Of a stretch of 64,000 nt of DNA, positions 13,441-62,754 are shown piece by piece. The notes under the pieces were generated by a model. It was not told the DNA's origin, searched no databases, and saw only the letters and a program-made list of their open reading frames with translations. The position numbers were made by a program, and so were the translations under genes. The first letter of the stretch is position 1; each line of letters opens with the position of its first letter. Source of the stretch: Candidatus Woesearchaeota archaeon (GTDB taxonomy: Archaea; Nanobdellota; Nanobdellia; Pacearchaeales; GW2011-AR1); assembly GCA_964606775.1 (NCBI GenBank), contig CAZSGW010000003.1:13335-77334 (forward strand). Reading direction: 5' to 3'.

Positions 13441-13579
13441 TAGATTTTTACATCTTGAAAATTATTTAAAAGTATTGAATGTCAAAAAGAGAAAAATATG
13501 AAGAATTGTAATTGTTCTTATTCCGGTTGTCCCGGGAAAGGTATTTGTTGTGAATAGTTAATCAAAGAACAGTTTGATT

Positions 13580-13825
13580 TTATTTTTTTTCACCAAGTAT
13601 TTTTGTAAATAACCAAATTCCCAATACACCTATAATCGTTATTATTATTGCGCTGGCCAGTTTTCCTTGAAGAATGCTCAATGCAGTTATTTTTGCAACA
13701 GCTTCGCTAATTACACTATTCCAAGCCAATGCAATCACTAAGCTAAATGCGGTAACTATTGCAGTAAGTGTTATTTTTTTAAATTCTTTTTTTAGTTTTT
13801 TTACATGTTTTTTTCTTTTTTTCAT
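13580..13825 (-). CDS. small membrane protein with Lys-rich N-terminus
   Basis: 81 aa. MKKRKKHVKKLKKEFKK followed by two TM helices. Confidence 0.4.
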   Translation of the reverse strand: MKKRKKHVKKLKKEFKKITLTAIVTAFSLVIALAWNSVISEAVAKITALSILQGKLASAIIITIIGVLGIWLFTKILGEKK

Positions 13826-14382
13826 TTAACAATTTCTCCGTAGGTTTTATTTTTAATTCCTGCTGCATTTCCTTCATCTGTGTCTAAGTGGAATGAAGAT
13901 TTATATTCTGGTTTTACCCTTATTTGAACATCATTAAATGTTACTGGTCTTTTTGTTTTCATTTTTACAGAAACTTTTTGTTTATTTTTTAGTTTGTATT
14001 TTTTAGATTCTTTTTCTGAGAGATGTATATGTCTTTTTGCAATTATTGTTGAAATCATTGCTGTTCCTTTTTTACCTTTAACTTTTATTTTCTTTACGTC
14101 TGCAAGATCTCCAGAGATTCTTAGAGGAGGATTTATTTTTAGTTTGAATGCATCTGTTTGAGAAATTTCTAATTGGGATTTGTTTCTTGTTGGTCCAAGA
14201 ACTCTTACATTTTCGATTTTATTTTTTCCTGAGGTTATTGTAACTGTTTCTTTAGAAGCGAATTCTCCTGGTTGAGATAATTTCTTAATTGGTTTTAGTT
14301 TGTGGTTTTTTCCAAATAATTTTTCTAAATCTTTTTGAGATAAATGTATATGTCTTGCTGAAACTTCTGTTAGTATTTTCAT
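13822..14382 (-). CDS. pduL: PduL-type phosphate acyltransferase (phosphotransacetylase)
   Basis: 186 aa. Two PduL repeats, each with an ARHIHL/KRHIHL motif. It overlaps ackA by 4 bp, which implies an operon. Confidence 0.7.
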   Translation of the reverse strand: MKILTEVSARHIHLSQKDLEKLFGKNHKLKPIKKLSQPGEFASKETVTITSGKNKIENVRVLGPTRNKSQLEISQTDAFKLKINPPLRISGDLADVKKIKVKGKKGTAMISTIIAKRHIHLSEKESKKYKLKNKQKVSVKMKTKRPVTFNDVQIRVKPEYKSSFHLDTDEGNAAGIKNKTYGEIVK

Positions 14383-15356
14383 ATAATTTCTAAAACCTCT
14401 TTTGCTATTTGTAGTTCTTCTTTTGAAGACTCTGTTATTATTTTAAATTTTTTAAGGTATTTTAAGTTTTTGCAAACGTCTTTTCTTATCTTTGAGTTAT
14501 TTGAACCTATTGCACCAGTAAAAACTAGGTTATCTAATCCGTTAAGTGCTGAGACATATGCTCCTATTTTTTTTGTTATTGAGTAAACGAACATTTCGTA
14601 TGCTAATTTTGAATTTTTGTTTTTAATTGTTGAAAGTATTTTTCTGAAATCGGAATGTCCTGAGATTCCTTTTAGTCCGGATTTATTGTTTAATATTTCT
14701 TTAACTTTATGACCTTTTTTTTGTAAGAAGAAAATTATTTCGGGGTCTATGTTTCCAGAACGAGTTCCCATCATAACTCCTGCAAGAGGAGAGAATCCCA
14801 TAGATGTTTCTATTGGTTTTGAATTTTTTATTGCGGTTATGCTACATCCTGCTCCAAGATGACATACTATTGTTTTTCCCTTTGTTTTTTCTGAGAAGTA
14901 TTTATGGGAAATTCCATGAAATCCGTATTTTCTTATTTTGTATTTTGTTGAGATGCTTTTTGGAATTGCATATATTTTTGATATATCTGGTAAGTCTGTA
15001 AAAAACGAGGTATCAAAAACAGCATACTGAGGAGTTTCTAATTTTTCACATATTTTTATTGCCATTAATTCTTTGGGATTGTGTAATGGAGCGAATTCTC
15101 CGAATTTTTTTATTTGTTTTTTAACTTTCGAATTTATTTTTTGAGGTTTCTTGTATTCTCCTCCATGGACAATTCTGTGTGCTATTAAATCTATTTTTTC
15201 TTTTGATAATTTTTTTAGTGTTTTTTCTATTGCTTTTTTGAAATCTTTTTTGCTTGTTAGTTTGTCTTCTTTTCCAGATTTTATTTTTTTCAGATTATTA
15301 AATAAACTGTATTTTATGCTGGAACTTCCTACGTTGAAAATTAATATCTTTTTCAT
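14379..15356 (-). CDS. ackA: acetate/propionate kinase
   Basis: 325 aa. Shows N-terminal ILIFNVGSSSIKYSLF, HRIVHGGE, GFHGISHKY, HLGAGCSI and SMGFSPLAGVMMGTRSGNIDP, all conserved acetokinase motifs. It is a compact version, since typical AckA is about 400 aa. Confidence 0.8.
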   Translation of the reverse strand: MKKILIFNVGSSSIKYSLFNNLKKIKSGKEDKLTSKKDFKKAIEKTLKKLSKEKIDLIAHRIVHGGEYKKPQKINSKVKKQIKKFGEFAPLHNPKELMAIKICEKLETPQYAVFDTSFFTDLPDISKIYAIPKSISTKYKIRKYGFHGISHKYFSEKTKGKTIVCHLGAGCSITAIKNSKPIETSMGFSPLAGVMMGTRSGNIDPEIIFFLQKKGHKVKEILNNKSGLKGISGHSDFRKILSTIKNKNSKLAYEMFVYSITKKIGAYVSALNGLDNLVFTGAIGSNNSKIRKDVCKNLKYLKKFKIITESSKEELQIAKEVLEII

Positions 15357-15357
15357 T

Positions 15358-15660
15358 TTAGAGTTTTATTTTTTCTGCGATGTCTCCTATTATGAATGTG
15401 TTTATTTTTTTCCCGGAGAGTGCATTTATCCATGACGCAACCCAAAGAATTATTATGAATATGTAAAATAGCCAACCTATTATTTTTATTTCCATTAGAA
15501 TTTCGGCAATTACAAATCCAATGAAGATTATTAACCCTTGTTTTGCATAGAACATCACATATTTATCTTCTCTTGAAATTAGGATTGCAATTAGAAATCC
15601 AACTATTGTAAAAAATGAAGCAATCCAAGCTAATACTTTTTTTTCACCCTTTTTTGGCAT
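15358..15660 (-). CDS. small membrane protein (hypothetical)
   Basis: 100 aa with three hydrophobic helices. Confidence 0.4.
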   Translation of the reverse strand: MPKKGEKKVLAWIASFFTIVGFLIAILISREDKYVMFYAKQGLIIFIGFVIAEILMEIKIIGWLFYIFIIILWVASWINALSGKKINTFIIGDIAEKIKL

Positions 15661-15732
15661 GATTATATGAGGTATTCGGTTTTTATAAAGTTGATGAAAA
15701 ATATTTAAAGGAGAATGGTTAACTTTAGTTGA

Positions 15733-15805
15733 AGCCCGTTAGTACAGTGGTCAAGTATGCTAGACTCTGGATCTGGCGACCCAGGTTCGAATCCTGGACG
15801 GGCTA
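15733..15805 (+). tRNA. tRNA-Gln(CUG): tRNA-Gln (anticodon CUG)
   Basis: Cloverleaf folded by hand. Acceptor AGCCCGU/ACGGGCU, D-stem GUAC/GUAU, anticodon stem CUAGA/UCUGG, loop CUCUGGA, T-arm CCAGG-UUCGAAU-CCUGG. No intron, and CCA is not encoded. Confidence 0.85.
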
Positions 15806-15836: not shown

Positions 15837-16508
15837 ATGAAAACAAAAGTGGTGGCTACAATTGGACCTTCTAGTTTTAAACATTTAAAGAAGATGAAAG
15901 ATTCTGGAATGAATATTGCAAGAATAAACACTAAGTATGGAAATAATGATGAATGGGAATGGGTGATTTCTCATTTAAAGAAACATAATATTGAGATTAT
16001 GGTTGATATAAAAGGTTTAGGGGTTTTAGATTGGGTTTTATCTCAGGATATAGATTATCTTGCAGTATCTTATGCTAAGAATTCAGCCCAAATAAAAAAA
16101 ATTAAAAAAAAGTTAGATAAGAACGTTAAGGTGGTTTCAAAAATTGAGACTATAGAAGGAATTAAGAATATTGATGGACTGATAAAAAATAGTTATGGTC
16201 TGATGGTTGCTAGAGGGGATTTATCCGAGAATGTTTCTTTTGAGAAGGTCCCGTATTATAAGAATATGATAATTGATAAATGTATTAAGCAGAATAAATT
16301 TACTATTGTTGCTACCGAGATGTTAATGTCAATGGTTGATTTTAAGAAGCCGACTAATGCAGAGGTTGACGATGTTTTTAGTTCGGTTATTGAAGGTGCT
16401 AAAGGAGTCATGCTTTCTGAAGAAACGGCAATTGGGAAATATCCTGTTTTGAGCGTTAAGACAATGGTTAAAATTGTTAAAGAAGCCGAGAAATATTTGA
16501 AATTATAA
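15837..16508 (+). CDS. pyk: pyruvate kinase-like protein, A-domain only (no B or C domains)
   Basis: Start trimmed to M at 15837, because the track ORF ran through tRNA-Gln. MKTKVVATIGPSS, ARINTKYG, MVARGDL and MLSEETAIGKYP match the pyruvate kinase barrel, but the product is only 223 aa. Confidence 0.6.
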   Translation: MKTKVVATIGPSSFKHLKKMKDSGMNIARINTKYGNNDEWEWVISHLKKHNIEIMVDIKGLGVLDWVLSQDIDYLAVSYAKNSAQIKKIKKKLDKNVKVVSKIETIEGIKNIDGLIKNSYGLMVARGDLSENVSFEKVPYYKNMIIDKCIKQNKFTIVATEMLMSMVDFKKPTNAEVDDVFSSVIEGAKGVMLSEETAIGKYPVLSVKTMVKIVKEAEKYLKL

Positions 16509-20590: not shown

Positions 20591-21616
20591 ATGGTTGATT
20601 CAAATGTTGAAAGTTATGAGGAGTTATTGTCTCCTTCGAGAATTATAGAAAAAATTCCTCTTTCTGAAGATGTAAATGAATTTGTTCTTGAAACTAGGGA
20701 TGTTTTGAGGAGAATAATTGATGGGGAAGATAAGAGAAAAATTTTGATTGTTGGTCCTTGTTCAATACATAATTATGATTCTGCGAAAAAATATGCTTTG
20801 AAATTGAAAGAATTACAAGATAAAGTTAAAGATAAAATTTTAATTTTGATGAGAACTTATTTTGAGAAGCCTCGGACTTCATTAGGTTGGAAGGGGATGT
20901 TATATGATCCTGATTTGGTTGAAAAATATGACATTGAAAAAGGGTTGATTGAATCTCGGAAGTTACTTTTGGAAATTAATGAATTGGGGTTGGGTTGTGC
21001 GACAGAGTTTTTGAATGTTATAACTCCTCAATATATTGGAGATTTAATTTCTTGGGCGGCAATTGGTGCTAGGACAACAGAATCACAACTTCACCGTGAG
21101 ATGGCTTCTGGACTTTCAATGCCTGTTGGTTTTAAAAATAATGTTTTAGGAGATATTTTGCCCGCGATAAATGCCATAAAATCTTCGAAAAACCCCCATT
21201 CTTTTTTAGGGATAAGTTTTGAAGGTAAAATAAGTAAGGTTAAGACAAAAGGGAATGAATATTGTAATATTATTTTGAGGGGGGGAGAGAAGGGTCCAAA
21301 TTATTCTTCTGAAGATGTTTTTGAAACTATCGGGAAATTGAGAGAGAATAGTTTGAATGAAAAAATTTTTGTTGATTGTAGTCATGGAAATTCGGATAAA
21401 AATCCCTTGAAGCAGAGTGAAGTCTTAGAAAATATTTCTGGTCAGATTAAAGATGGTAATGAGAGCATTATTGGGTTGATGATTGAATCTAATTTGAAAG
21501 AAGGAAATCAAAAAATTGGTTCGGATGTTGATCCTGAAGTATCAATTACTGATGCTGGTTTGGGATGGGAAGATACCGAGAGAGCAATCTTAGACTTTTA
21601 TGAAAAATTAAAATAA
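20591..21616 (+). CDS. 3-deoxy-7-phosphoheptulonate (DAHP) synthase, class I alpha (AroG-like)
   Basis: 341 aa. ILIVGPCSIH...LMRTYFEKPRTSLGWKGMLYDP is the class I alpha DAHPS signature. Confidence 0.8.
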   Translation: MVDSNVESYEELLSPSRIIEKIPLSEDVNEFVLETRDVLRRIIDGEDKRKILIVGPCSIHNYDSAKKYALKLKELQDKVKDKILILMRTYFEKPRTSLGWKGMLYDPDLVEKYDIEKGLIESRKLLLEINELGLGCATEFLNVITPQYIGDLISWAAIGARTTESQLHREMASGLSMPVGFKNNVLGDILPAINAIKSSKNPHSFLGISFEGKISKVKTKGNEYCNIILRGGEKGPNYSSEDVFETIGKLRENSLNEKIFVDCSHGNSDKNPLKQSEVLENISGQIKDGNESIIGLMIESNLKEGNQKIGSDVDPEVSITDAGLGWEDTERAILDFYEKLK

Positions 21617-41519: not shown

Positions 41520-44054
41520 ATGGAAGAAAAAGAGGATAAGCGTTCTAAACCGGATTCTGTGAAATGGTTTAAGGAATTGAATCGAGATTCTGGAAAGTAT
41601 GCCGGGGGTAAAGGCGCTAATCTTGCTGAGATTTACAATTTGGGAATTGATGTTCCACCTGGATTTGTTGTAACTGCACAGGCTTATGATTATTTTATTG
41701 AGGAAGCTGGAATTAAGGAACAGGTTTTTGAGATTTTAGATTCTATCAAATATGAAGATACTGAAGATTTAAACGAGAAGACAAAAGAAGTTCGGAGATT
41801 AATCGTTAAGACGGATTTTCCGAAAGAGATGAAGGTAGAAATTTTGGAAGCTTATGAGCATCTTGGTGCTGTTGCGTTTGATAGTCAGAGTAGCGAGGCT
41901 ATTGACATTTTGAAAACATCTTCTGAACCTATTTTTGTGGCAGTTAGAAGTTCTGCAACCGCAGAGGATTTAGCCGATGCGAGTTTTGCAGGTCAGCAAG
42001 ATACTTATTTGAATATCAAGGGTAATTCGGATTTACTCGATAAGGTAAAAAAATGTTTTGCTTCTTTATTTACTTCGAGAGCCACCTATTATAGGCATAA
42101 AAAAGGATTCAAACACGATCAAGTTAGTTTAGCAGTTGTTGTTCAAAAAATGATTGATGCAAATAAATCAGGAGTTATATTTTCAAAAGATCCGACTTAC
42201 AAAAGTGAGGATACTATCATTGAGGCTGTTTGGGGATTAGGAGAAGGAATTGTTTCAGGAAGAGTTACTCCAGATAAATATGTTGTTTCAAAGGATTTGG
42301 AAATCGTAGATAAAAAAATTAAAAATAAGAAAGTTGCTATAACAAGGAATTCTGCAGGCGAGAAAGAAGTTGTGAAGTTGAATGAAGATAAAGCGAAGTC
42401 GCAAGTTTTGAAAAATCATGAGATAAAAAAATTAGCTGAAATTGCAAACAAACTGGAAAAGCATTATGATAAACCTCAGGATATTGAATTTGCGATTGAA
42501 GGTTCAGAAGTTTATATTGTTCAAACCCGTCCTATAACAACTTTAGAAAAAAGAATTGAGAAAGGTGGACGAGAGGAAATTGAAGGAGAACCTGTTTTAG
42601 AGGGGTTGGCTGCTTCTCCTGGGATTGCAGTTGGGAAGGTGAAGGTTGTTGATAGTTTAGAAGATTTACATAAAGTTCAGAAAGGAGATATTTTGGTTAC
42701 GGGAATGACTAATCCAGATATGGTGGTTACGATGCAGAGGTCTTCAGGAATAGTAACTGATGAAGGAGGGATGACTGCTCATGCTGCGATAGTGTCTAGG
42801 GAAATGGGCATTCCTTGTGTTGTTGGAACTGATACTGCAACTTCTACTTTAAAAGATGGAGAAATTATTACTATTGACGGATATTCTGGGAAGATTTATC
42901 AAGGAGAAGTTGCGGAAAGTGAAAAGAAAGAGGTTCAAGAAGTGACAGCACAAACTAAAACAAAGATAAAAGTTATTGTTGATTTGCCGAGTTTTGCGGA
43001 GAGAGCTTCAAAAACAGGAATTAAGAAAGTTGGATTAACGAGGGTGGAAGGAATTATTGCAGAGTCTGGAAAACATCCAAATTATTTTTTGACTAAAGGA
43101 AACGTGCAAGAGTATGAAGACATAATTTACGATGGAATTTCTGGTATTGCTAAATATTTTGATGAAGTTTGGGTAAGGACTTCTGATGTTAGGAGTGATG
43201 AATATCAAAATTTGGAAGGAGCACCAAAGCAAACAGAAGCTAATCCTATGTTGGGAATGCATGGAATAAGATTTGGGATTAAACATCCTAAAATAATAAA
43301 GGCAGAGATGAAGGCACTTCAAAGAGTTGCGCAGGAAAATAAGAAAGTTGGATTGTTGTTCCCTCAAGTTATTTCTGTTGAAGAACTTAAAAAAATGAAG
43401 GAGTTTAGAAGCGAATTAAATTTTAATAACGCAAAGCTTGGAATTATGATTGAAACTCCTGCTTCTATACAGATAATTAATGAATTGTGTAGCGAAGGAA
43501 TAGATTTTATTTCATTTGGTACAAATGATTTGACACAATATATGTTGGCTTTAGATAGAGGAAATCAGGCTGTCCAGCATCTTTACGATGAAATGCATCC
43601 TGCGATTTTGAAGCAATTAGAGTATGTTATAAGAGTTTGTAAAAGAAATAAAGTTGAGACTTCTATTTGTGGACAGGCAGGTTCTAGGAAAGAAATGGCG
43701 AAGTTTTTGGTCGAGGCAGGAATTGATAGTATTAGTGTTAATGCAGATATGGCAAAGGAAATTTCTGATTATGTTGCAGAAATAGAGAAAAATCTTCAGG
43801 AGAAAAAAGGAGAATTGCCGAGGCAGTATCAACCTAATAAATTTAAAAAATTTCATAAAAAACAATTTAAGAAGAATGAATATTATGAGAAGAATAAGGA
43901 AAGAATCGATAGGGATTTGGAGGCGCTTGAAAAGGAAAAAATGGAGTGTATTCGTAAGGATAAAAAAGATGGTGGGTACAAACAAGGTAATGAGAAATGT
44001 TTGGAGGCGCTTGAAAAGGAAAAGCAAGAATACTTGAAAAAAGAAAATTTATAA
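41520..44054 (+). CDS. ppsA: phosphoenolpyruvate synthase (pyruvate, water dikinase) with Lys/Glu-rich C-terminal extension
   Basis: 844 aa. N-terminal ATP-grasp (GGKGANLAE), phosphohistidine domain GGMTAHAAIVSREMGIPCVVG, C-terminal PEP-utilising TIM barrel, and a ~90-aa tail with a duplicated LEALEKEK unit. Confidence 0.9.
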   Translation: MEEKEDKRSKPDSVKWFKELNRDSGKYAGGKGANLAEIYNLGIDVPPGFVVTAQAYDYFIEEAGIKEQVFEILDSIKYEDTEDLNEKTKEVRRLIVKTDFPKEMKVEILEAYEHLGAVAFDSQSSEAIDILKTSSEPIFVAVRSSATAEDLADASFAGQQDTYLNIKGNSDLLDKVKKCFASLFTSRATYYRHKKGFKHDQVSLAVVVQKMIDANKSGVIFSKDPTYKSEDTIIEAVWGLGEGIVSGRVTPDKYVVSKDLEIVDKKIKNKKVAITRNSAGEKEVVKLNEDKAKSQVLKNHEIKKLAEIANKLEKHYDKPQDIEFAIEGSEVYIVQTRPITTLEKRIEKGGREEIEGEPVLEGLAASPGIAVGKVKVVDSLEDLHKVQKGDILVTGMTNPDMVVTMQRSSGIVTDEGGMTAHAAIVSREMGIPCVVGTDTATSTLKDGEIITIDGYSGKIYQGEVAESEKKEVQEVTAQTKTKIKVIVDLPSFAERASKTGIKKVGLTRVEGIIAESGKHPNYFLTKGNVQEYEDIIYDGISGIAKYFDEVWVRTSDVRSDEYQNLEGAPKQTEANPMLGMHGIRFGIKHPKIIKAEMKALQRVAQENKKVGLLFPQVISVEELKKMKEFRSELNFNNAKLGIMIETPASIQIINELCSEGIDFISFGTNDLTQYMLALDRGNQAVQHLYDEMHPAILKQLEYVIRVCKRNKVETSICGQAGSRKEMAKFLVEAGIDSISVNADMAKEISDYVAEIEKNLQEKKGELPRQYQPNKFKKFHKKQFKKNEYYEKNKERIDRDLEALEKEKMECIRKDKKDGGYKQGNEKCLEALEKEKQEYLKKENL

Positions 44055-47743: not shown

Positions 47744-48763
47744 TTATTTTAGTTCAAAAACTTTTACGTTTCCAAACCCTTTTACATTTTTTGTTCCCAG
47801 CTCTTTATATTTGAATCTATTTCCGGTTTTCTTTGTGTTTTCATCTACAAAAATTTGGTTTTTCCCTGCCAAATTTGTTAATCTGGAAGCTAAATTAACT
47901 TTTTTACCGATAACTGTGTAGTCCATTATTTGTTCATATCCTATGTTTCCTGCAACAACCCTTCCTGTAGCAATTCCAATTGAAACTCCACTTCCTTTTA
48001 TTTTGTATTTTTTTATAATTTTTTTACCTTTTTTTCTAATCTCTTTTGCTGTAGAGATTGCTTTGCTTGCGTGATTTTTTTGGGGCAGCGGGGTTCCGAA
48101 GACGACCATTATTGCATCCCCTATTAGTTTATCGATTGTTCCTCCTCGTTTTAGGACAACTTTTGCAATCTCTTTGAAATAGTGGTTCAAAAAATCTATT
48201 ACTTCTTCGGATTTTGAGTTGTTTACGTACTCTGTAAAACCATTTATGTCTGCGAATAAAACACTACAATTTTTTCTTTCACCTGCGACATATTTTTTGT
48301 CTGGATGTTTTAATATTTTTTTTAGAGTTTTTTCATCAACATACCTCTTGAAAATTGCTTTTAGACCCACTGAATCTGCTTCATGTTTAAATCTTCCATC
48401 TAAAATTGTTTCACTTGATTCGGCATATGCTAAATCTTCTTTCGTGAATTTTTTACCAAATAAATAGATTAATCCAAATTTTTTATCTTTTAAGAGAATT
48501 GGTACTGCTAATTCATTTCTTTTTAAAATTGATTTTGATTTTGTGAATGCTTTTTTTACAAGTTTTAATTTTATTCTTCCTTCTTTAGATAAAATTTTTA
48601 ATTTGCTTTCTATGAAGTCATAAATAAAGAGAGTCCCTCCTTTAGCACCTGTTTCTTTTATAATTTCATTTAATATTTTTTTAGAAGCCTTTCTAATCTC
48701 AGGATATAAATCTACTATCTCATCGGTTTTTTTAAGAACCCTTAAGTTAGTCTCACAATCCAT
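47744..48763 (-). CDS. class III adenylate/guanylate cyclase with N-terminal GAF-like sensor domain
   Basis: 339 aa. C-terminal CSVLFADINGFTE...LIGDAIMVVFG...GIATGRVVAGNIG...TVIGKKVNLASRL are the canonical cyclase-homology-domain motifs, with the metal-binding Asp residues present. Confidence 0.8.
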   Translation of the reverse strand: MDCETNLRVLKKTDEIVDLYPEIRKASKKILNEIIKETGAKGGTLFIYDFIESKLKILSKEGRIKLKLVKKAFTKSKSILKRNELAVPILLKDKKFGLIYLFGKKFTKEDLAYAESSETILDGRFKHEADSVGLKAIFKRYVDEKTLKKILKHPDKKYVAGERKNCSVLFADINGFTEYVNNSKSEEVIDFLNHYFKEIAKVVLKRGGTIDKLIGDAIMVVFGTPLPQKNHASKAISTAKEIRKKGKKIIKKYKIKGSGVSIGIATGRVVAGNIGYEQIMDYTVIGKKVNLASRLTNLAGKNQIFVDENTKKTGNRFKYKELGTKNVKGFGNVKVFELK

Positions 48764-54607: not shown

Positions 54608-54736
54608 ATGAGCCTGCACGGATTTGAACCGTGGGCCTCTGGCTTTCTTAGACTCAGAGTCTATGAAATCAACAATCCGAAGCAGAGGATCGCAGTCATA
54701 TAAGACCAGCGCTCTGACCAGACTGAGCTACAGGCT
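54608..54736 (-). tRNA. tRNA-Ile(UAU): tRNA-Ile (anticodon UAU) with 54-nt intron at 37/38
   Basis: Minus-strand exons: GAGCCUGUAGCUCAGUCUGGUCAGAGCGCUGGUCUUAUA, intron, then AGCCAGAGGCCCACGGUUCAAAUCCGUGCAGGCUCA. Anticodon stem CUGGU/GCCAG, loop C-U-UAU-A. Intron approx 54644-54697. Confidence 0.7.
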
Positions 54737-54789
54737 CATGTAGAAAATTGTCTAATAAGATATTTAAAGGTTTTTGAGGTGGGATTATT

Positions 54790-57729: not shown

Positions 57730-58131
57730 ATGAAATATGAAGTTGCAGAGGATTTACAAATTATTGCGGACGAGATTTCTAATTTATTATTTCCTCATAT
57801 AGATATGTCTCGTGTTAAATGTTTTAGGAGTTTTGGGAGTTCTTCTCGGGGAACTATTGCTCGTTGTCATGCTCTTGGAAAGGTTATGCAGATGACTATT
57901 GGAGTTGAGGCTCATTATTCTTTAGAGTTTTTGTGCCCTCGATTTGAGAAGCTTTCTGATGAAGATAAAGTTAAGACGATTATTCATGAGTTGATGCATA
58001 TTCCTCAAACTTTTGGAGGAGGATTTAGACATCATAATTGGGTTACTGAGAAAAATGTGAATTTACATTATCAGACTTATCTTGCTAAAAAAGAAGGTCG
58101 AGAGAAAAAAAGAAGTTGGTTTGGAATTTAG
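57730..58131 (+). CDS. predicted zinc metallopeptidase (HExxH), SprT/WLM-like
   Basis: Start trimmed to MKYEVAED at 57730. IIHELMHIP zinc-binding motif. Confidence 0.5.
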   Translation: MKYEVAEDLQIIADEISNLLFPHIDMSRVKCFRSFGSSSRGTIARCHALGKVMQMTIGVEAHYSLEFLCPRFEKLSDEDKVKTIIHELMHIPQTFGGGFRHHNWVTEKNVNLHYQTYLAKKEGREKKRSWFGI

Positions 58132-60571: not shown

Positions 60572-60846
60572 CTTTTGATTTTCCTAAACGAGATAAAATA
60601 AAATAGATTACTATTATCATTCCTGCTCTAATTATGATGTTTAAGGTTATATTTCCCGAAAGACCTATTCCAAATGTTGCTGGATTTATTACAACACCTA
60701 TTCCACAAGAAAGCAAAAAGGAAACGATTTTCCATGTTTTGTATGCCATAACCAAATTTTTAATTAAAAATCTGAAAATTAAGAAAATAATTTTTAATTT
60801 TATAAAATATTCTTTAATTTTGTGTATAAACTATAAAATTAAGATT

Positions 60847-62754
60847 ATGAAAAAAATAATTACTCTTTTGGGAATTGTTCTTATTGGACTTTTTATTATA
60901 AATCAATCTTGTAAAAAAGATAAGGATTTTGAAGAAATTTCAGAACAAGAACAAACTGAAATTGGCAATATAATTAATGTGGATATTGAAGGAGATGTAG
61001 GAACAATGAATTTTAATGATAGTATTATAATAACTGATAATTCAGTTTGCCAAGATACCGTAATAAAATATGATCTAAAATTTTTTAATGAGAGCAATAA
61101 TCAAATAAAAAATTTAGATATTAATTATTATAATCGTGAGGGAAAGTCTCATATTTATATTTATGATCCTGAAAGAAGATATGAATCTTGTTATCTCAGC
61201 GGAACCCCTTTAGAAATAAAATCCTATCTTGATTCTTTGTCAAATACAAAATCCTTAAATGATATTGTAGATATTGAAGAATCAGACGAAGTAATAACAT
61301 TAACAATTGCTGCAATTGTTTTTCTCGTTGGGATTACAAAACTTCAATTAGATGTTATTGAAAATGTGCATGAAGTCGATAAATTTTTAACTTCCGATAT
61401 AATTGAAATAAATAATAATTCTGTTACATATTGTAAAACCATGTCAGAAATAACAGATTATTATGAACATCTCAAAACAACTAAAAAAAGCATTAAAGAA
61501 ATAATTATAAGTTATATTACTTTTGTTGCTAATGGTCAAACTTATATGAATACTTCTGTGAAAGATTTTGCAATTGATTGTTCCAAAAATTTTATTAATG
61601 ATAAAGTAAAAAGTTTATTGAAAAATAAAGCTCAAGAAGTTTGGAGTTTAAATAATTCTTATATTGATACAGCTAAATTTTATTTTGTTGTAAATTATCC
61701 TTGTGATTTATTAAGTGGAGATGATGAATGTTCTCATATAGAAATACTTTATGCAAAATCAAATATCATCTTTGGAACTAATTATTGTAGTGATTTACCT
61801 CTTAAAATTCCAGTAGCAAACTTCACTGCTAATAAGACAACAATAACAAAGGGAGAGTCAATTAATTTTACAGATCAATCTACAAACACTCCTACAAACT
61901 GGTTATGGGATTTTGGAGATGGTAAGACTTCTTCATTACAAAATCCATCTCATACATATAATTCTTTTGGCATATATTCTGTTTCATTGACTGCCAGTAA
62001 TTCAGATGGTTCAGACATTAAAACTAAAGTAGATTATATTAGTGTTGAAAGAGAGATTGTTTATGGTAATGGAGTAACAGATTATAATGGGAATACTTAT
62101 GAAACAATTATTGTTGGGAATCAGGAATGGATGGTAAGCAATCTAAAAGCAACATCTTATGCAGATGGGACTCCTATCCCTAGTGGAAATCAATATTGTG
62201 ATTTAGATGGATGTCATTTTATTAGGAATAAAGGAAATTATACTTCTAAATATTATTTTTGGCTTTATGAAGACAAACAAAATAAAAATAAAACAGGAGC
62301 TTTTTATACTTGGGCAGCAGTTATGAATGGTGCACCAGGCAGTAATTTAAATCCTAGCAATATTCAAGGAGTTTGTCCAACAGGATGGCATGTTCCAAGC
62401 GATGCTGAATGGAAGGAACTTGAATCTTTTATGGGAATGGGTTCTTTAGAGCTGGAGAAATATGGATATCGTGAACTTTTAGAAGTGGAAAGTTTGATGT
62501 CTGAATCAATGGATGGAACAAATAGTACAGGGTTTGCTACAATTGCAGAAGGTTATAGATCAACTTATCTTAGTCCTAGTTGTCCTGATTGTAGTTATTC
62601 TTGGAAAAATAATGGACATGATGCAGTTTTTTGGACAAGTACAGATAGTAGTAATTCATCTATTTATCGTCTCTTTTATAATAATTCAGACTATATTAAA
62701 AGAGATAAGTTTACTAAAGATTATGGTTTAAATGTAAGATGTGTAAAAGATTAA
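60847..62754 (+). CDS. secreted/lipoprotein-like surface protein with PKD domain and Fibrobacter-succinogenes-major-paralogous-type C-terminal domain
   Basis: Start trimmed to signal peptide MKKIITLLGIVLIGLFIINQSC at 60847. The PKD-like segment is ANFTANKTTITKGESINFTDQSTNTPTNWLWDFGDGKTS...YSVSLTASNSDGSD. The C-terminal GAFYTWAAV...GVCPTGWHVPSDAEWKELE matches the TIGR02145-type domain. Confidence 0.7.
   Translation: MKKIITLLGIVLIGLFIINQSCKKDKDFEEISEQEQTEIGNIINVDIEGDVGTMNFNDSIIITDNSVCQDTVIKYDLKFFNESNNQIKNLDINYYNREGKSHIYIYDPERRYESCYLSGTPLEIKSYLDSLSNTKSLNDIVDIEESDEVITLTIAAIVFLVGITKLQLDVIENVHEVDKFLTSDIIEINNNSVTYCKTMSEITDYYEHLKTTKKSIKEIIISYITFVANGQTYMNTSVKDFAIDCSKNFINDKVKSLLKNKAQEVWSLNNSYIDTAKFYFVVNYPCDLLSGDDECSHIEILYAKSNIIFGTNYCSDLPLKIPVANFTANKTTITKGESINFTDQSTNTPTNWLWDFGDGKTSSLQNPSHTYNSFGIYSVSLTASNSDGSDIKTKVDYISVEREIVYGNGVTDYNGNTYETIIVGNQEWMVSNLKATSYADGTPIPSGNQYCDLDGCHFIRNKGNYTSKYYFWLYEDKQNKNKTGAFYTWAAVMNGAPGSNLNPSNIQGVCPTGWHVPSDAEWKELESFMGMGSLELEKYGYRELLEVESLMSESMDGTNSTGFATIAEGYRSTYLSPSCPDCSYSWKNNGHDAVFWTSTDSSNSSIYRLFYNNSDYIKRDKFTKDYGLNVRCVKD

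What the first reader, a model, noticed from the sequence alone, without database searches (positions are those of the whole stretch)
13822..15356. PduL-type phosphotransacylase plus compact acetate kinase operon in an archaeal background
ackA carries all the acetokinase motifs read in the sequence. The adjacent, 4-bp-overlapping gene has two RHIH repeats diagnostic of PduL rather than the classical Pta. Acetate kinase is rare in archaea and PduL is normally associated with bacterial microcompartment and propanediol loci. The pair suggests a horizontally acquired substrate-level phosphorylation route (acetyl-phosphate to acetate plus ATP) in a metabolically reduced organism. At 325 aa the kinase is also unusually short.
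Basis: partly seen in the sequence, partly recalled or inferred. Interest (0 to 1): 0.55.

Follow-up and report, generated by a model that had tools for sequence, protein, structure and literature searches.

The report
Archaeal PduL–acetate kinase operon, compact

Summary
ackA (14379-15356, minus strand, 325 aa) and pduL (13822-14382, minus strand, 186 aa) overlap by ATGA. Both hit their families strongly: PF00871 at 1e-89 and PF06130 at 3e-68. Predicted structures match solved AckA (TM 0.91) and PduL (TM 0.95).

The host is archaeal: the window encodes PolB, FEN1, RFC and an archaeal ThrRS editing domain.

The pair is not a curiosity of this genome. At least 120 protein clusters from Pacearchaeota, Woesearchaeota and Nanoarchaeia carry each gene. 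In 7 of 7 loci inspected ackA is immediately followed by pduL. Five of them, the window included, also keep EndoIII and RFC next to the pair. This points to one old acquisition followed by vertical inheritance. The nearest relatives of both genes are Patescibacteria (CPR).

Ack/Pta in these archaea and its bacterial origin were published in 2021. PduL as a microcompartment-free Pta is known from Moorella, phytoplasmas and SR1.

What seems undescribed is the compact kinase family (median 348 aa). It has lost the "universally conserved" Gly331 and Asn211 of the nucleotide site. This subclade also lacks the acetate/propionate-kinase-specific insertion.

Verdict: a real feature, a new member of a known kind, of modest interest.

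The parts
15681..15689 (-). TATA-box-like element (TTTATAAAA), 21-29 nt upstream of the first ATG of the operon. It is a possible archaeal promoter for a leaderless transcript.
   Evidence: Read directly from the sequence. This is weak evidence: the genome is about 31% GC, so such strings arise easily by chance. Similar AT-rich boxes lie upstream in L002-L004.
15358..15660 (-). First gene of the putative operon: a 100-aa predicted membrane protein with no family match. Its stop codon is 1 nt before the ackA start codon.
   Evidence: ORF. No Pfam or NCBIfam hit. Spacing read. It is not conserved upstream of ackA in L002-L004.
14379..15356 (-). ackA: a compact acetate kinase of 325 aa.
   Evidence: PF00871 at 1.2e-89 and TIGR00016 at 301.3 bits against a cutoff of 293.4. 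PDB hits 2iir and 1g99 at about 1e-65. AlphaFold model with pLDDT 92.7, and TMq 0.91 / rmsd 2.8 A to 1g99. Catalytic and acetate-pocket residues are conserved; Asn211 and Gly331 are replaced.
13822..14382 (-). pduL: a PduL-type phosphotransacylase of 186 aa, two PF06130 halves each with RHIH, no encapsulation peptide. It overlaps ackA by ATGA.
   Evidence: PF06130 at 2.9e-68 and NF011652 at 238.5 bits against a cutoff of 209. PDB 5cuo at 1e-35. Zn ligands H11, H13, E72, H118, H120 and H165 plus R66 and S90 are all present; only 9 residues precede the first RHIH. Model pLDDT 94.4 and TM 0.95-0.96 to 5cuo.
13580..13825 (-). Last gene of the putative operon: an 81-aa DUF5654 small membrane protein that overlaps pduL by ATGA.
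   Evidence: PF18898 at 5.7e-12. Overlap read. A DUF5654 gene also overlaps the end of pduL in L002.
13441..13579 (-). Intergenic spacer with T-runs between the operon and the separately promoted EndoIII gene. It is the likely end of the transcription unit.
   Evidence: Sequence read. This is inference only.
15837..16508 (+). Divergent neighbour: a barrel-only 'mini' pyruvate kinase of 223 aa. It may be functionally linked, since it supplies pyruvate and is also a substrate-level phosphorylation step. It is separated from the operon by tRNA-Gln (15733-15805).
   Evidence: PF00224 barrel only; TIGR01064 at 224 bits, below its cutoff of 306. tRNA. Family-wide length of about 226 aa. It is not adjacent to ackA in L002-L004.

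Best explanation
This is a tightly packed archaeal operon: a 100-aa membrane protein, ackA, pduL, and a DUF5654 membrane protein. The host is a Nanoarchaeota-type DPANN archaeon of the Pacearchaeota/Woesearchaeota kind.

Proposed mechanism:
- PduL is a free cytoplasmic di-zinc phosphotransacylase with no microcompartment-targeting peptide. It converts acetyl-CoA + Pi to acetyl-phosphate + CoA.
- The compact acetate kinase transfers the phosphoryl group to ADP, giving acetate + ATP.

What is shown and what is inferred:
- Shown by sequence and predicted structure: the enzyme identities, the intact active sites and the operon layout.
- Inferred: the acetyl (C2) specificity, the use of ADP, and the net acetate-forming direction.

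The pair was acquired once, long ago, from bacteria. Its closest relatives are the equally compact PduL/Ack pairs of Patescibacteria (CPR). It has since been inherited vertically inside a conserved archaeal neighbourhood.
For: Enzyme identity:
- HMM scores are above curated cutoffs for both proteins, and both hit solved structures.
- The models are confident. AckA has pLDDT 92.7 and TM 0.91 to Methanosarcina thermophila (M. thermophila) AckA 1g99. PduL has pLDDT 94.4 and TM 0.95 / rmsd 1.1 A to 5cuo.

Active sites:
- AckA residues equivalent to the M. thermophila acetate kinase (MtACK) residues N7, R91, H123, D148, H180, H208, R241 and E384 are invariant in 123 of 123 family members (E384 in 122). 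So are pocket residues V93 and F179; L122 and P232 are kept in 122 and 116.
- Val93 limits acyl length.
- PduL keeps all six Zn ligands, phosphate-binding R103 and S127, and the CoA contacts defined in the 5cuo paper.

No microcompartment:
- Only 9-12 residues precede the first RHxH in most of the family (105 of 115 clusters in which that motif was found), so there is no encapsulation peptide.
- No shell protein was found among the 76 ORFs of 70 aa or more in the window.

Operon layout:
- The gene junctions are a 1-nt gap, an ATGA overlap and another ATGA overlap.

Lineage-wide and vertical:
- At least 120 clusters exist for each protein at 54-74% identity, named Pacearchaeota, Nanoarchaeia or Woesearchaeota.
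- ackA is immediately followed by pduL in 7 of 7 loci.
- EndoIII and RFC genes are conserved next to the pair.
- RFC small subunit is about 80% identical in loci where AckA is 56-62% identical.

Bacterial (CPR) affinity:
- The DPANN AckA clade has 100/100 NJ bootstrap support. Its nearest neighbours are only CPR sequences in 67/100 replicates.
- PduL of DPANN plus CPR groups against microcompartment-type PduL and the fusion proteins in 170/200 replicates.
- DPANN and CPR share derived characters: the N-terminal hairpin deletion, H152 changed to F/Y, and loss of N211 and G331.

Precedents:
- PduL has phosphotransacetylase activity in Moorella.
- PduL is proposed to work with AckA in phytoplasmas and SR1.
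- Ack/Pta has been reported in Pacearchaeota and Woesearchaeota.
Against: - No enzyme assay exists for any member of this compact family.
- Two residues shown experimentally to matter for nucleotide use in MtACK are replaced. Asn211 becomes Ala here and Ser in most of the family. Gly331 becomes Ala here and Ala or Lys in the family.
- In MtACK the single substitutions N211S, N211A and G331A cut kcat by 55-, 2- and 8-fold. G331A also raises Km for acetate 40-fold.
- The window's subclade also lacks the insertion (StAckA residues 354-377) that contacts the nucleotide base.
- No source of acetyl-CoA (PFOR, PDH or PFL) is encoded in the 64-kb window, and the rest of the genome could not be searched.
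- The pathway is reversible in principle, so acetate activation cannot be excluded.
- The trees are neighbour-joining on a sample biased by how the loci were retrieved, and the sister relation to CPR is only moderately supported.
- Gene order is opposite in CPR (pduL then ackA), so a simple en-bloc operon transfer is not demonstrated.
Confidence: 0.75

Rival explanations
1. The enzymes are the same but the flux is opposite. The pair activates scavenged acetate (acetate + ATP to acetyl-P to acetyl-CoA) to supply acetyl-CoA to an organism that cannot make it, as in acetoclastic Methanosarcina.
For: Both reactions are reversible. Castelle et al. explicitly suggest that these archaea can both excrete and assimilate acetate. 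No acetyl-CoA-forming enzyme such as PFOR, PDH or PFL was found in the window. DPANN are thought to live on host or community metabolites.
Against: [quoted passage not shown] In MtACK, G331A raises Km for acetate 40-fold, which would disfavour acetate uptake. The neighbouring pyruvate kinase and the PEP synthase in the window point to pyruvate-centred catabolism. This argument is an analogy from mutants of another enzyme and is not decisive.
Confidence: 0.15
2. The compact kinase has a remodelled phosphoryl-acceptor site. It does not behave like a canonical ATP/ADP acetate kinase. It could be strictly purine-specific, one-way, or even Pi/PPi-dependent like the Entamoeba enzyme.
For: - The Gly331 equivalent is Gly in only 3 of 123 DPANN family members and in none of the 10 CPR-clade relatives tallied at that column. 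It is Gly in 64 of 64 other bacterial sequences in the sample.
- The literature calls this Gly completely conserved in ACKs except the PPi-dependent Entamoeba enzyme.
- Asn211 is also lost.
- The window's subclade lacks the base-contacting insertion.
- Among the 149 of the 150 closest 50%-identity representatives that were aligned, 30 lack this Gly, and 27 of those 30 are 380 aa or shorter.
Against: - The Entamoeba hallmarks are absent. There is no extra Gly lengthening the PHOSPHATE2 loop, since HLG[SA]G[SC]S is the same length as HLGNGxS. There is no Asp before the 331 position and no Gln-Met.
- MtACK G331A and N211A mutants still use ATP.
- Adenine-stacking R285, its partner D283, and N335 are kept in the DPANN family.
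- The supposed PPi consumer in the window is PEP synthase, not PPDK.
Confidence: 0.12
3. The pair handles propionyl or another short acyl group. It would be a phosphate propanoyltransferase plus propionate kinase, as the automatic names suggest, rather than an acetyl pathway.
For: NCBI names the proteins 'phosphate propanoyltransferase' and 'acetate/propionate family kinase'. Salmonella PduL prefers propionyl-CoA. The PduL acyl-pocket residues S45 and A154 are the same as in the propionyl-using enzyme.
Against: The kinase keeps Val at the MtACK Val93 position in 123 of 123 sequences. [quoted passage not shown] No propanediol, ethanolamine or threonine-degradation genes are in the window. PduL enzymes without a microcompartment work as phosphotransacetylases in Moorella.
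Confidence: 0.05
4. The two genes are bacterial contamination, a chimeric assembly, or a very recent transfer, and are not a genuine part of the archaeal genome.
For: Both families are overwhelmingly bacterial. One close homologue is labelled 'Patescibacteria group bacterium'. pduL has an unusually low GC3 of 0.12, z = -3 against the other genes in the window.
Against: The same ackA-pduL-EndoIII-RFC arrangement occurs in independent assemblies from NCBI, ENA and Logan. The genes overlap their neighbours by ATGA. Overall GC is like the rest of the window. The DPANN clade has 100% bootstrap support and diverges in parallel with the host genes.
Confidence: 0.02

Closest known systems
Ack/'Pta' pathway reported in Pacearchaeota and Woesearchaeota (Castelle et al. 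2021, PMC8204110; Huang et al. 2021, PMC8421398)
   Same: It is the same lineage, the same two-step acetate pathway, and the same conclusion that the genes came from bacteria. The window's proteins are 54-74% identical to homologues named after these taxa.
   Different: Those papers speak of 'Pta'. The text I could read does not say that the transacylase is PduL-type, and no held paper contains both 'PduL' and 'DPANN'. They also do not describe the compact kinase or its altered nucleotide-site residues.
Microcompartment-free PduL + AckA acetate pathway of bacteria (Moorella thermoacetica PduL1/2, phytoplasmas, candidate phylum SR1)
   Same: PduL replaces Pta next to or together with acetate kinase, with no shell genes. 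Phosphotransacetylase activity was measured for Moorella PduL. The CPR loci fetched here have pduL directly beside a compact ackA.
   Different: Here the host is an archaeon. Gene order is ackA then pduL, whereas it is pduL then ackA in the nine CPR-type loci. The kinase is 325 aa, against about 400 aa in Moorella and the Mollicutes.
Microcompartment-associated PduL (Salmonella Pdu, Rhodopseudomonas palustris; PDB 5cuo)
   Same: The fold is the same (TM 0.95). So are the six Zn ligands, the phosphate-binding Arg and Ser, and the CoA contacts.
   Different: It is about 40% identical. It has no N-terminal encapsulation peptide, and there are no shell, aldehyde dehydrogenase or signature-enzyme genes nearby.
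Methanosarcina Pta-AckA (the classical archaeal case, acquired from Clostridia)
   Same: It is an archaeon with a bacterial acetate kinase pathway obtained by horizontal transfer. The catalytic residues are the same, and the model superposes on 1g99 at TM 0.91.
   Different: Methanosarcina uses the classical PF01515 Pta and a 408-aa kinase with Asn211 and Gly331, and runs the pathway toward acetyl-CoA for methanogenesis. This is a separate acquisition. A third, independent one (classical pta, a 389-aa ackA, and PFOR nearby) is seen in a Woesearchaeota MAG, L016.
Acetate kinases with deviant nucleotide sites (Entamoeba histolytica PPi-ACK, Cryptococcus neoformans ACK)
   Same: The Gly331 and/or Asn211 equivalents are replaced. 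Ser at position 211 is the Cryptococcus state. Both of those enzymes prefer the acetate-forming direction.
   Different: There is no extended PHOSPHATE2 loop and no Asp-Gln-Met in the ADENOSINE motif. The sequences are not specifically related to those enzymes.
AckA-PduL fusion proteins
   Same: The same two activities are linked in the order Ack then PduL. This was noted by Erbilgin et al. and seen here in Neolewinella (589 aa) and an Aminicenantes MAG (781 aa).
   Different: Here they are two separate, translationally coupled genes. The fusion proteins are more distant: PduL is about 40% identical, and they fall outside the DPANN+CPR group.

Membership tests
Acetate kinase (acetokinase family, PF00871 / TIGR00016) | Profile match above the curated threshold, and better than to butyrate kinase. 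| tested here: met
   PF00871 scores 301 bits (cutoff 22). TIGR00016 scores 301.3 against 293.4, so it barely passes. Butyrate kinase models score 70-83 bits against 222-289. In PDB searches AckA hits reach 1e-65, while Buk2 reaches 6e-8.
Acetate kinase (acetokinase family, PF00871 / TIGR00016) | Two-domain ASKHA fold of AckA. | tested here: met
   The AlphaFold model has pLDDT 92.7 and pTM 0.90. TMq is 0.91 and rmsd 2.8 A to 1g99, against TMq 0.78 to butyrate kinase 1saz. This is a prediction, not a solved structure.
Acetate kinase (acetokinase family, PF00871 / TIGR00016) | Catalytic and metal residues (MtACK N7, R91, H123, D148, H180, R241, E384) and the acetate pocket (V93, L122, F179, P232). 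| tested here: met
   All are present in the window protein: N8, R61, H92, D115, H147, R199, E313, and V63, L91, F146, P190. All are invariant or nearly so in 123 family members.
Acetate kinase (acetokinase family, PF00871 / TIGR00016) | Nucleotide-site residues Asn211 (PHOSPHATE2) and Gly331 (ADENOSINE), described as conserved in all ATP-dependent ACKs. | tested here: not met
   The window has Ala169 and Ala282. In the family, position 211 is S104/A10/D3/Q3/H1 and position 331 is A77/K34/R4/S3/G3. In other bacteria in the sample, position 331 is Gly in 64 of 64.
Acetate kinase (acetokinase family, PF00871 / TIGR00016) | The acetate/propionate-kinase-specific insertion between alphaII2 and betaII5 (StAckA residues 354-377). 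| tested here: not met
   It is absent from the window protein and from P0002, P0004 and P0011. It is present in the roughly 348-aa majority of the family. It is also absent from the CPR sequences L005 and L009. The insertion is described.
Acetate kinase (acetokinase family, PF00871 / TIGR00016) | Catalyses acetyl-P + ADP to acetate + ATP. | not testable with these tools
   This requires an enzyme assay.
PduL phosphotransacylase (PF06130 / NF011652) | Profile match above the curated threshold across both repeat halves. | tested here: met
   PF06130 scores 229.6 bits over profile positions 3-176 of 176. NF011652 scores 238.5 against 209.
PduL phosphotransacylase (PF06130 / NF011652) | Dimetal site (His48, His50, Glu109; His157, His159, His204) plus Arg103 and Ser127. 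| tested here: met
   The equivalents are H11, H13, E72; H118, H120, H165; R66 and S90. They are invariant in 123 family members, except H165, which is kept in 118 of 123.
PduL phosphotransacylase (PF06130 / NF011652) | The PduL double beta-barrel fold. | tested here: met
   Model pLDDT is 94.4. TM is 0.95-0.96 and rmsd 1.1 A to 5cuo. No other PDB fold scores below E=0.01.
Microcompartment (BMC)-associated PduL | An N-terminal encapsulation peptide. | tested here: not met
   Only 9 residues precede the first RHIH here, and 9-12 residues in 105 of the 115 clusters where the first motif was found (up to 16 in the rest). In rPduL, His48 follows a roughly 30-residue peptide.
Microcompartment (BMC)-associated PduL | Shell protein genes (PF00936, PF03319) and aldehyde-generating enzymes in the locus. 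| tested here: not met
   None was found among the 76 ORFs of 70 aa or more in the 64-kb window.
Classical Pta-AckA operon (PF01515 Pta) | A PTA_PTB-domain phosphotransacetylase partner. | tested here: not met
   There is no PF01515 hit in the window. By contrast, L016 (another Woesearchaeota MAG) has PF01515 directly upstream of a 389-aa ackA.
PPi-dependent acetate kinase (Entamoeba type) | A PHOSPHATE2 loop extended by an extra Gly, and Asp-Gln-Met in the ADENOSINE motif. | tested here: not met
   HLGAGCS is the same length as HLGNGSS. The ADENOSINE motif reads FTGAIGSNN.

The most novel reading that the evidence does not exclude
The compact acetate kinases shared by DPANN archaea and CPR bacteria may be a biochemically distinct subfamily and not merely trimmed copies.

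They have lost the ADENOSINE-motif Gly331 and the PHOSPHATE2 Asn211. In the window's subclade they have also lost the insertion that contacts the nucleotide base.

They may therefore have a different phosphoryl-acceptor specificity, or be essentially one-way acetate-forming and ATP-yielding enzymes.

Because they score at or below annotation thresholds, they may be undercounted. They could be an overlooked ATP source in archaea that lack ATP synthase, exchanged between the two ultra-small-cell radiations.
Probability: 0.2. Interest if true: 0.55.

Novelty: new member of a known kind. Interest (0 to 1): 0.33.

Why it matters
Pacearchaeota- and Woesearchaeota-type archaea have tiny genomes and often no ATP synthase. 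How they make ATP is an open question.

[quoted passage not shown] It never mentions acetate.

The ackA-pduL pair is widespread in this lineage and would add one ATP per acetyl-CoA.

The kinase only just clears its curated NCBIfam threshold (301 against 293 bits). The neighbouring mini pyruvate kinase falls below its threshold (224 against 306 bits). Threshold-based metabolic reconstructions may therefore systematically miss such compact enzymes.

The shared derived features with CPR enzymes also add a concrete case to the evidence for gene exchange between the two radiations.

None of this overturns current views, and the pathway itself is already in the literature.

Tried and rejected
- **Microcompartment context.** Rejected. 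There is no encapsulation peptide and no shell gene among the 76 window ORFs scanned.
- **Butyrate or other carboxylate kinase.** Rejected on HMM, PDB and fold scores.
- **PPi economy link.** I first read the 844-aa PEP-utilising enzyme at 41520-44054 as PPDK, which would consume PPi. NCBIfam shows it is PEP synthase, so that argument was dropped.
- **Contamination or recent transfer.** Rejected on conserved synteny in independent assemblies and unremarkable GC.
- **Supplements of Castelle 2021.** I tried to learn from them whether the paper's 'Pta' family (fam12605) is PF06130. The held files do not contain the family identifiers.
- **Genome-contig scan.** Adjacency statistics rest on 7 loci plus matching contig lengths between the two homologue lists.
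- **Sigma-70 promoter/terminator scanner.** Not used, because the host is archaeal. The TATA-like box is a by-eye reading in a 31% GC genome and carries little weight.
- **Ack and PduL trees.** They are neighbour-joining only. No ML software was available. An early bootstrap read-out was wrong after re-rooting and was recomputed.
- **Whole-genome search for PFOR, ACD, ACS and Pta.** Impossible. Only the 64-kb window is available, and a 2.8-kb Logan contig of the same locus.
Full report
**1. Observation**

The window has two ORFs on the minus strand exactly as described: 14379..15356 (325 aa) and 13822..14382 (186 aa). They overlap by four bases, ATGA.

The 186-aa protein has RHIH at residues 10-13 and 117-120. 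It matches Pfam PF06130 end to end (E=2.9e-68) and NCBIfam NF011652 'phosphate propanoyltransferase' above its cutoff (238.5 against 209 bits).

The 325-aa protein matches PF00871 (E=1.2e-89) and TIGR00016 (301.3 against a cutoff of 293.4). Butyrate kinase models reach only 70-83 bits against cutoffs of 222-289. In the PDB it hits acetate and propionate kinases at about 1e-65 and butyrate kinase at 6e-8. The small protein hits only Rhodopseudomonas PduL (5cuo, 1e-35). These are real genes, not chance ORFs.

**2. Host**

The window encodes several archaeal markers:
- family B DNA polymerase
- FEN1
- RFC small and large subunits
- HerA
- a threonyl-tRNA synthetase with the archaea-specific editing domain
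- an RNase P p30 subunit

There is also a 129-nt tRNA hit that ARAGORN does not call, consistent with an intron. GC is 26-35% throughout. The closest homologues of both proteins are named Pacearchaeota, Nanoarchaeia, Nanoarchaeota, Woesearchaeota or Diapherotrites. The background is a DPANN archaeon of the Nanoarchaeota (Nanobdellota) kind.

**3. Anatomy of the locus**

Four genes are packed head to tail on the minus strand:

| Gene | Coordinates | Junction with the next gene |
|---|---|---|
| 100-aa membrane protein, no family match | 15358-15660 | 1-nt gap |
| ackA | 14379-15356 | ATGA overlap |
| pduL | 13822-14382 | ATGA overlap |
| 81-aa DUF5654 membrane protein | 13580-13825 | 139-bp T-rich spacer, then EndoIII |

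A TTTATAAAA box lies 21-29 nt upstream of the first ATG. This is compatible with an archaeal promoter and a leaderless transcript. In a 31% GC genome it is weak evidence.

On the other side lies tRNA-Gln (15733-15805). Next to it, running divergently, is a 223-aa pyruvate kinase (15837-16508).

**4. PduL**

All residues that the 5cuo structure paper defines are present:
- Zn1 ligands His48, His50 and Glu109
- Zn2 ligands His157, His159 and His204
- phosphate-binding Arg103 and Ser127
- CoA contacts Ser45, Lys70, Arg97, Leu99 and Asn211

The Zn ligands and the phosphate-binding pair are invariant or nearly invariant across 123 archaeal family members. The CoA contacts are somewhat more variable: Lys70 is kept in 109 and Leu99 in 105.

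Only 9 residues precede the first RHIH, and 9-12 in most of the family (up to 16 in a few), so there is no encapsulation peptide. The AlphaFold model (pLDDT 94.4) superposes on 5cuo at TM 0.95-0.96 and rmsd 1.1 A.

None of the 76 ORFs of 70 aa or more in the window is a microcompartment shell protein. None is a classical Pta, an ADP-forming acetyl-CoA synthetase, an AMP-forming ACS, a PFOR or a phosphoketolase. This is therefore a free, microcompartment-independent PduL.

**5. The kinase**

The alignment to Methanosarcina thermophila AckA (MtACK) keeps residue numbering unambiguous.

- The PHOSPHATE1 residues are present (N7, S10, S12, K14).
- The catalytic and metal residues are present (R91, H123, D148, H180, H208, R241, E384).
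- The four acetate-pocket residues are present (V93, L122, F179, P232).
- All of these are invariant or nearly so in 123 family members.
[quoted passage not shown] This favours acetate as substrate.

The AlphaFold model (pLDDT 92.7, pTM 0.90) matches 1g99 at TMq 0.91 and rmsd 2.8 A. It matches butyrate kinase at TMq 0.78.

The roughly 80 missing residues are discrete deletions:
- about 21 residues, a hairpin after beta-3 of domain I
- about 9 residues
- 2 residues
- about 9 residues after the GFHGxSH motif
- about 7 residues
- about 22 residues near the C-terminus, between 'NLKYL' and 'KKFKII'

The last deletion corresponds to the insertion at StAckA residues 354-377. That insertion is described as unique to acetate and propionate kinases and as contacting the nucleotide base. 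Most of the archaeal family (median 348 aa) keeps it. Only 8 of 120 clusters are 339 aa or shorter.

**6. What deviates in the kinase**

Asn211 (PHOSPHATE2) is Ala here, and S104/A10/D3/Q3/H1 across the family. Gly331 (ADENOSINE) is Ala here, and A77/K34/R4/S3/G3 across the family. His152 of the DTAFH motif is Phe.

In the same alignment, 64 of 64 other bacterial kinases have Gly331. The 11 CPR-clade relatives never have it among the 10 tallied at that column. They also lose Asn211 (G9/S2), Gly239 and Asn335.

Of the 150 closest 50%-identity representatives in a library of 1.8 billion proteins, 149 could be aligned. Including the window and the family's own representative, 95 of these sequences are 380 aa or shorter. 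Thirty lack Gly331, and 27 of those 30 are short.

Published work calls Gly331 completely conserved in ACKs except the PPi-dependent Entamoeba enzyme. In MtACK:
- G331A lowers kcat 8-fold.
- G331A shifts the enzyme to a purine preference.
- G331A raises Km for acetate 40-fold.
- N211S lowers kcat 55-fold.
- N211A lowers kcat 2-fold.

Ser211 is the natural state of the Cryptococcus enzyme, which prefers the acetate-forming direction.

The Entamoeba-specific hallmarks are absent: no extended PHOSPHATE2 loop and no Asp-Gln-Met. I therefore keep ADP/ATP as the most likely cofactor pair. I flag the nucleotide site as remodelled and untested.

**7. Distribution and history**

Each protein has at least 120 clusters (90% identity level) at 54-74% identity. 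The lists were cut off at 120.

ackA is immediately followed by pduL on the same strand in all 7 archaeal loci read. These are the window, L002-L004, and the contigs of P0002, P0011 and P0102. The junction is either an ATGA overlap or a gap of about 22 bp.

In five of these loci EndoIII and the two RFC genes follow, as in the window. RFC small subunit is about 80% identical in loci where AckA is 56-62% identical. This argues for vertical inheritance and against contamination.

At 50% identity the whole archaeal family collapses into one representative.

The next-best genomes are Patescibacteria: Falkowbacteria, Staskawiczbacteria and Saccharibacteria, plus MAGs labelled 'uncultured Gammaproteobacteria' that cluster with them. 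AckA identity is 41-45% and PduL identity 44-53%. Most of their kinases are 345-365 aa long. Their pduL lies directly upstream of ackA, the opposite order.

Neighbour-joining trees give:
- the archaeal AckA clade 100/100 support
- only CPR sequences as its nearest neighbours in 67/100 replicates
- PduL of DPANN plus CPR grouped against microcompartment PduL and the Ack-PduL fusion proteins in 170/200 replicates

Shared derived characters support common ancestry of the archaeal and CPR genes: the hairpin deletion, H152 changed to F/Y, and loss of N211 and G331. The direction of transfer is not resolved.

GC of the two genes (0.28) is slightly below the window mean (0.32 +/- 0.025). pduL has a low GC3 (0.12). 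There is no GC-rich foreign signature.

**8. Comparison with what is known**

- Castelle et al. [quoted passage not shown]
- Huang et al. 2021 find pta and ackA in many Woesearchaeota subgroups and infer a bacterial origin.
- PduL as an alternative Pta beside acetate kinase was described for candidate phylum SR1 in 2013.
- The same role was proposed for phytoplasmas.
- Phosphotransacetylase activity was shown for Moorella PduL1/2.
- Erbilgin et al. noted PduL-Ack fusion proteins. I saw two, in L047 and L049.

NCBI and JGI already name the homologues. The finding is therefore a further member of a reported system.

Some points I could not find in the searchable literature. No held paper mentions both PduL and DPANN. 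I also found no description of the compact kinase family and its altered nucleotide site.

A 2026 preprint on 208 complete Nanobdellota genomes does not mention acetate at all. [quoted passage not shown] AckA clears TIGR00016 by only 8 bits, and the mini pyruvate kinase fails TIGR01064 (224 against 306 bits). Such threshold-based surveys may therefore undercount these enzymes.

**9. Mechanism and verdict**

The most likely reading (about 0.75) is a cytoplasmic PduL/AckA pair that turns acetyl-CoA, Pi and ADP into acetate, CoA and ATP. It is expressed from a four-gene archaeal operon and was inherited from an old bacterial (CPR-related) acquisition.

Steps shown: gene identity, intact catalytic sites, absence of microcompartment features, operon packing, and lineage-wide conserved synteny.

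Steps inferred: C2 specificity, ADP as acceptor, net direction, co-transcription, and donor lineage.

Rivals:
- reverse flux for acetate assimilation (0.15)
- an altered phosphoryl acceptor (0.12)
- propionyl specificity (0.05)
- artefact (0.02)

Noticed in passing
window 15837-16508 (+): This is a 'mini' pyruvate kinase of 223 aa. It has only the TIM-barrel (A) domain and lacks both the B lid domain and the C-terminal domain. It scores 224 bits on TIGR01064, below the cutoff of 306. At least 120 homologous clusters, all 205-257 aa, come from Pacearchaeota, Nanoarchaeia and Woesearchaeota, so this is a family-wide architecture and not a truncation. The longer TTG-started ORF (from 15729) overlaps tRNA-Gln and is not the real gene.
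   Followed up: partly
L016 4992-7167 and 9591-11351 (Candidatus Woesearchaeota archaeon BS150m-G68): A different Woesearchaeota MAG carries a classical pta (PF01515) directly upstream of a full-length 389-aa ackA. A pyruvate:ferredoxin oxidoreductase gene lies 2.4 kb downstream. Its AckA branches among ordinary bacterial sequences. DPANN archaea therefore acquired acetate kinase pathways more than once.
   Followed up: partly
L047 5995-7764 (Neolewinella aquimaris) and L049 880-3225 (Aminicenantes MAG): These are single ORFs of 589 and 781 aa that fuse an acetate kinase to a C-terminal PduL domain.
   Followed up: no
window 13580-13825 (-) and L002 7630-7887 (+): A DUF5654 small membrane protein overlaps the stop codon of pduL by ATGA in the window and in a Nanoarchaeia genome. 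L003 instead has a DUF2061 small membrane protein just upstream of ackA. The recurrent pairing with tiny membrane proteins is unexplained. An acetate export role is only a guess.
   Followed up: partly
window 41520-44054 (+): A full-length PEP synthase (pyruvate, water dikinase) scores NF005057 at 804 bits against a cutoff of 598. Pfam alone suggested PPDK. Together with the mini pyruvate kinase it gives this organism two enzymes that interconvert PEP and pyruvate.
   Followed up: partly
window 54609-54737 (-): Rfam calls a tRNA spanning 129 nt (59 bits) that ARAGORN does not report. This probably reflects an intron-containing archaeal tRNA.
   Followed up: no
window 20591-21616 (+): A bacterial AroF/G/H-type (class I-alpha) DAHP synthase scores TIGR00034 at 433 bits in this archaeal genome. 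It may be another bacterial-type gene in the window.
   Followed up: no
window 60634-62754 (+) and 57730-58131 (+): The low-GC end of the window (26-29% GC) holds a 706-aa protein with PKD domains and a Fibrobacter succinogenes major paralogous domain. A 'putative phage metallopeptidase' domain protein lies nearby.
   Followed up: no
window 47744-48763 (-), also L082 2395-3417: A 339-aa protein carries an adenylate/guanylate cyclase catalytic domain (PF00211, 3e-29). It is conserved next to the PheRS genes in the closest relative as well.
   Followed up: no
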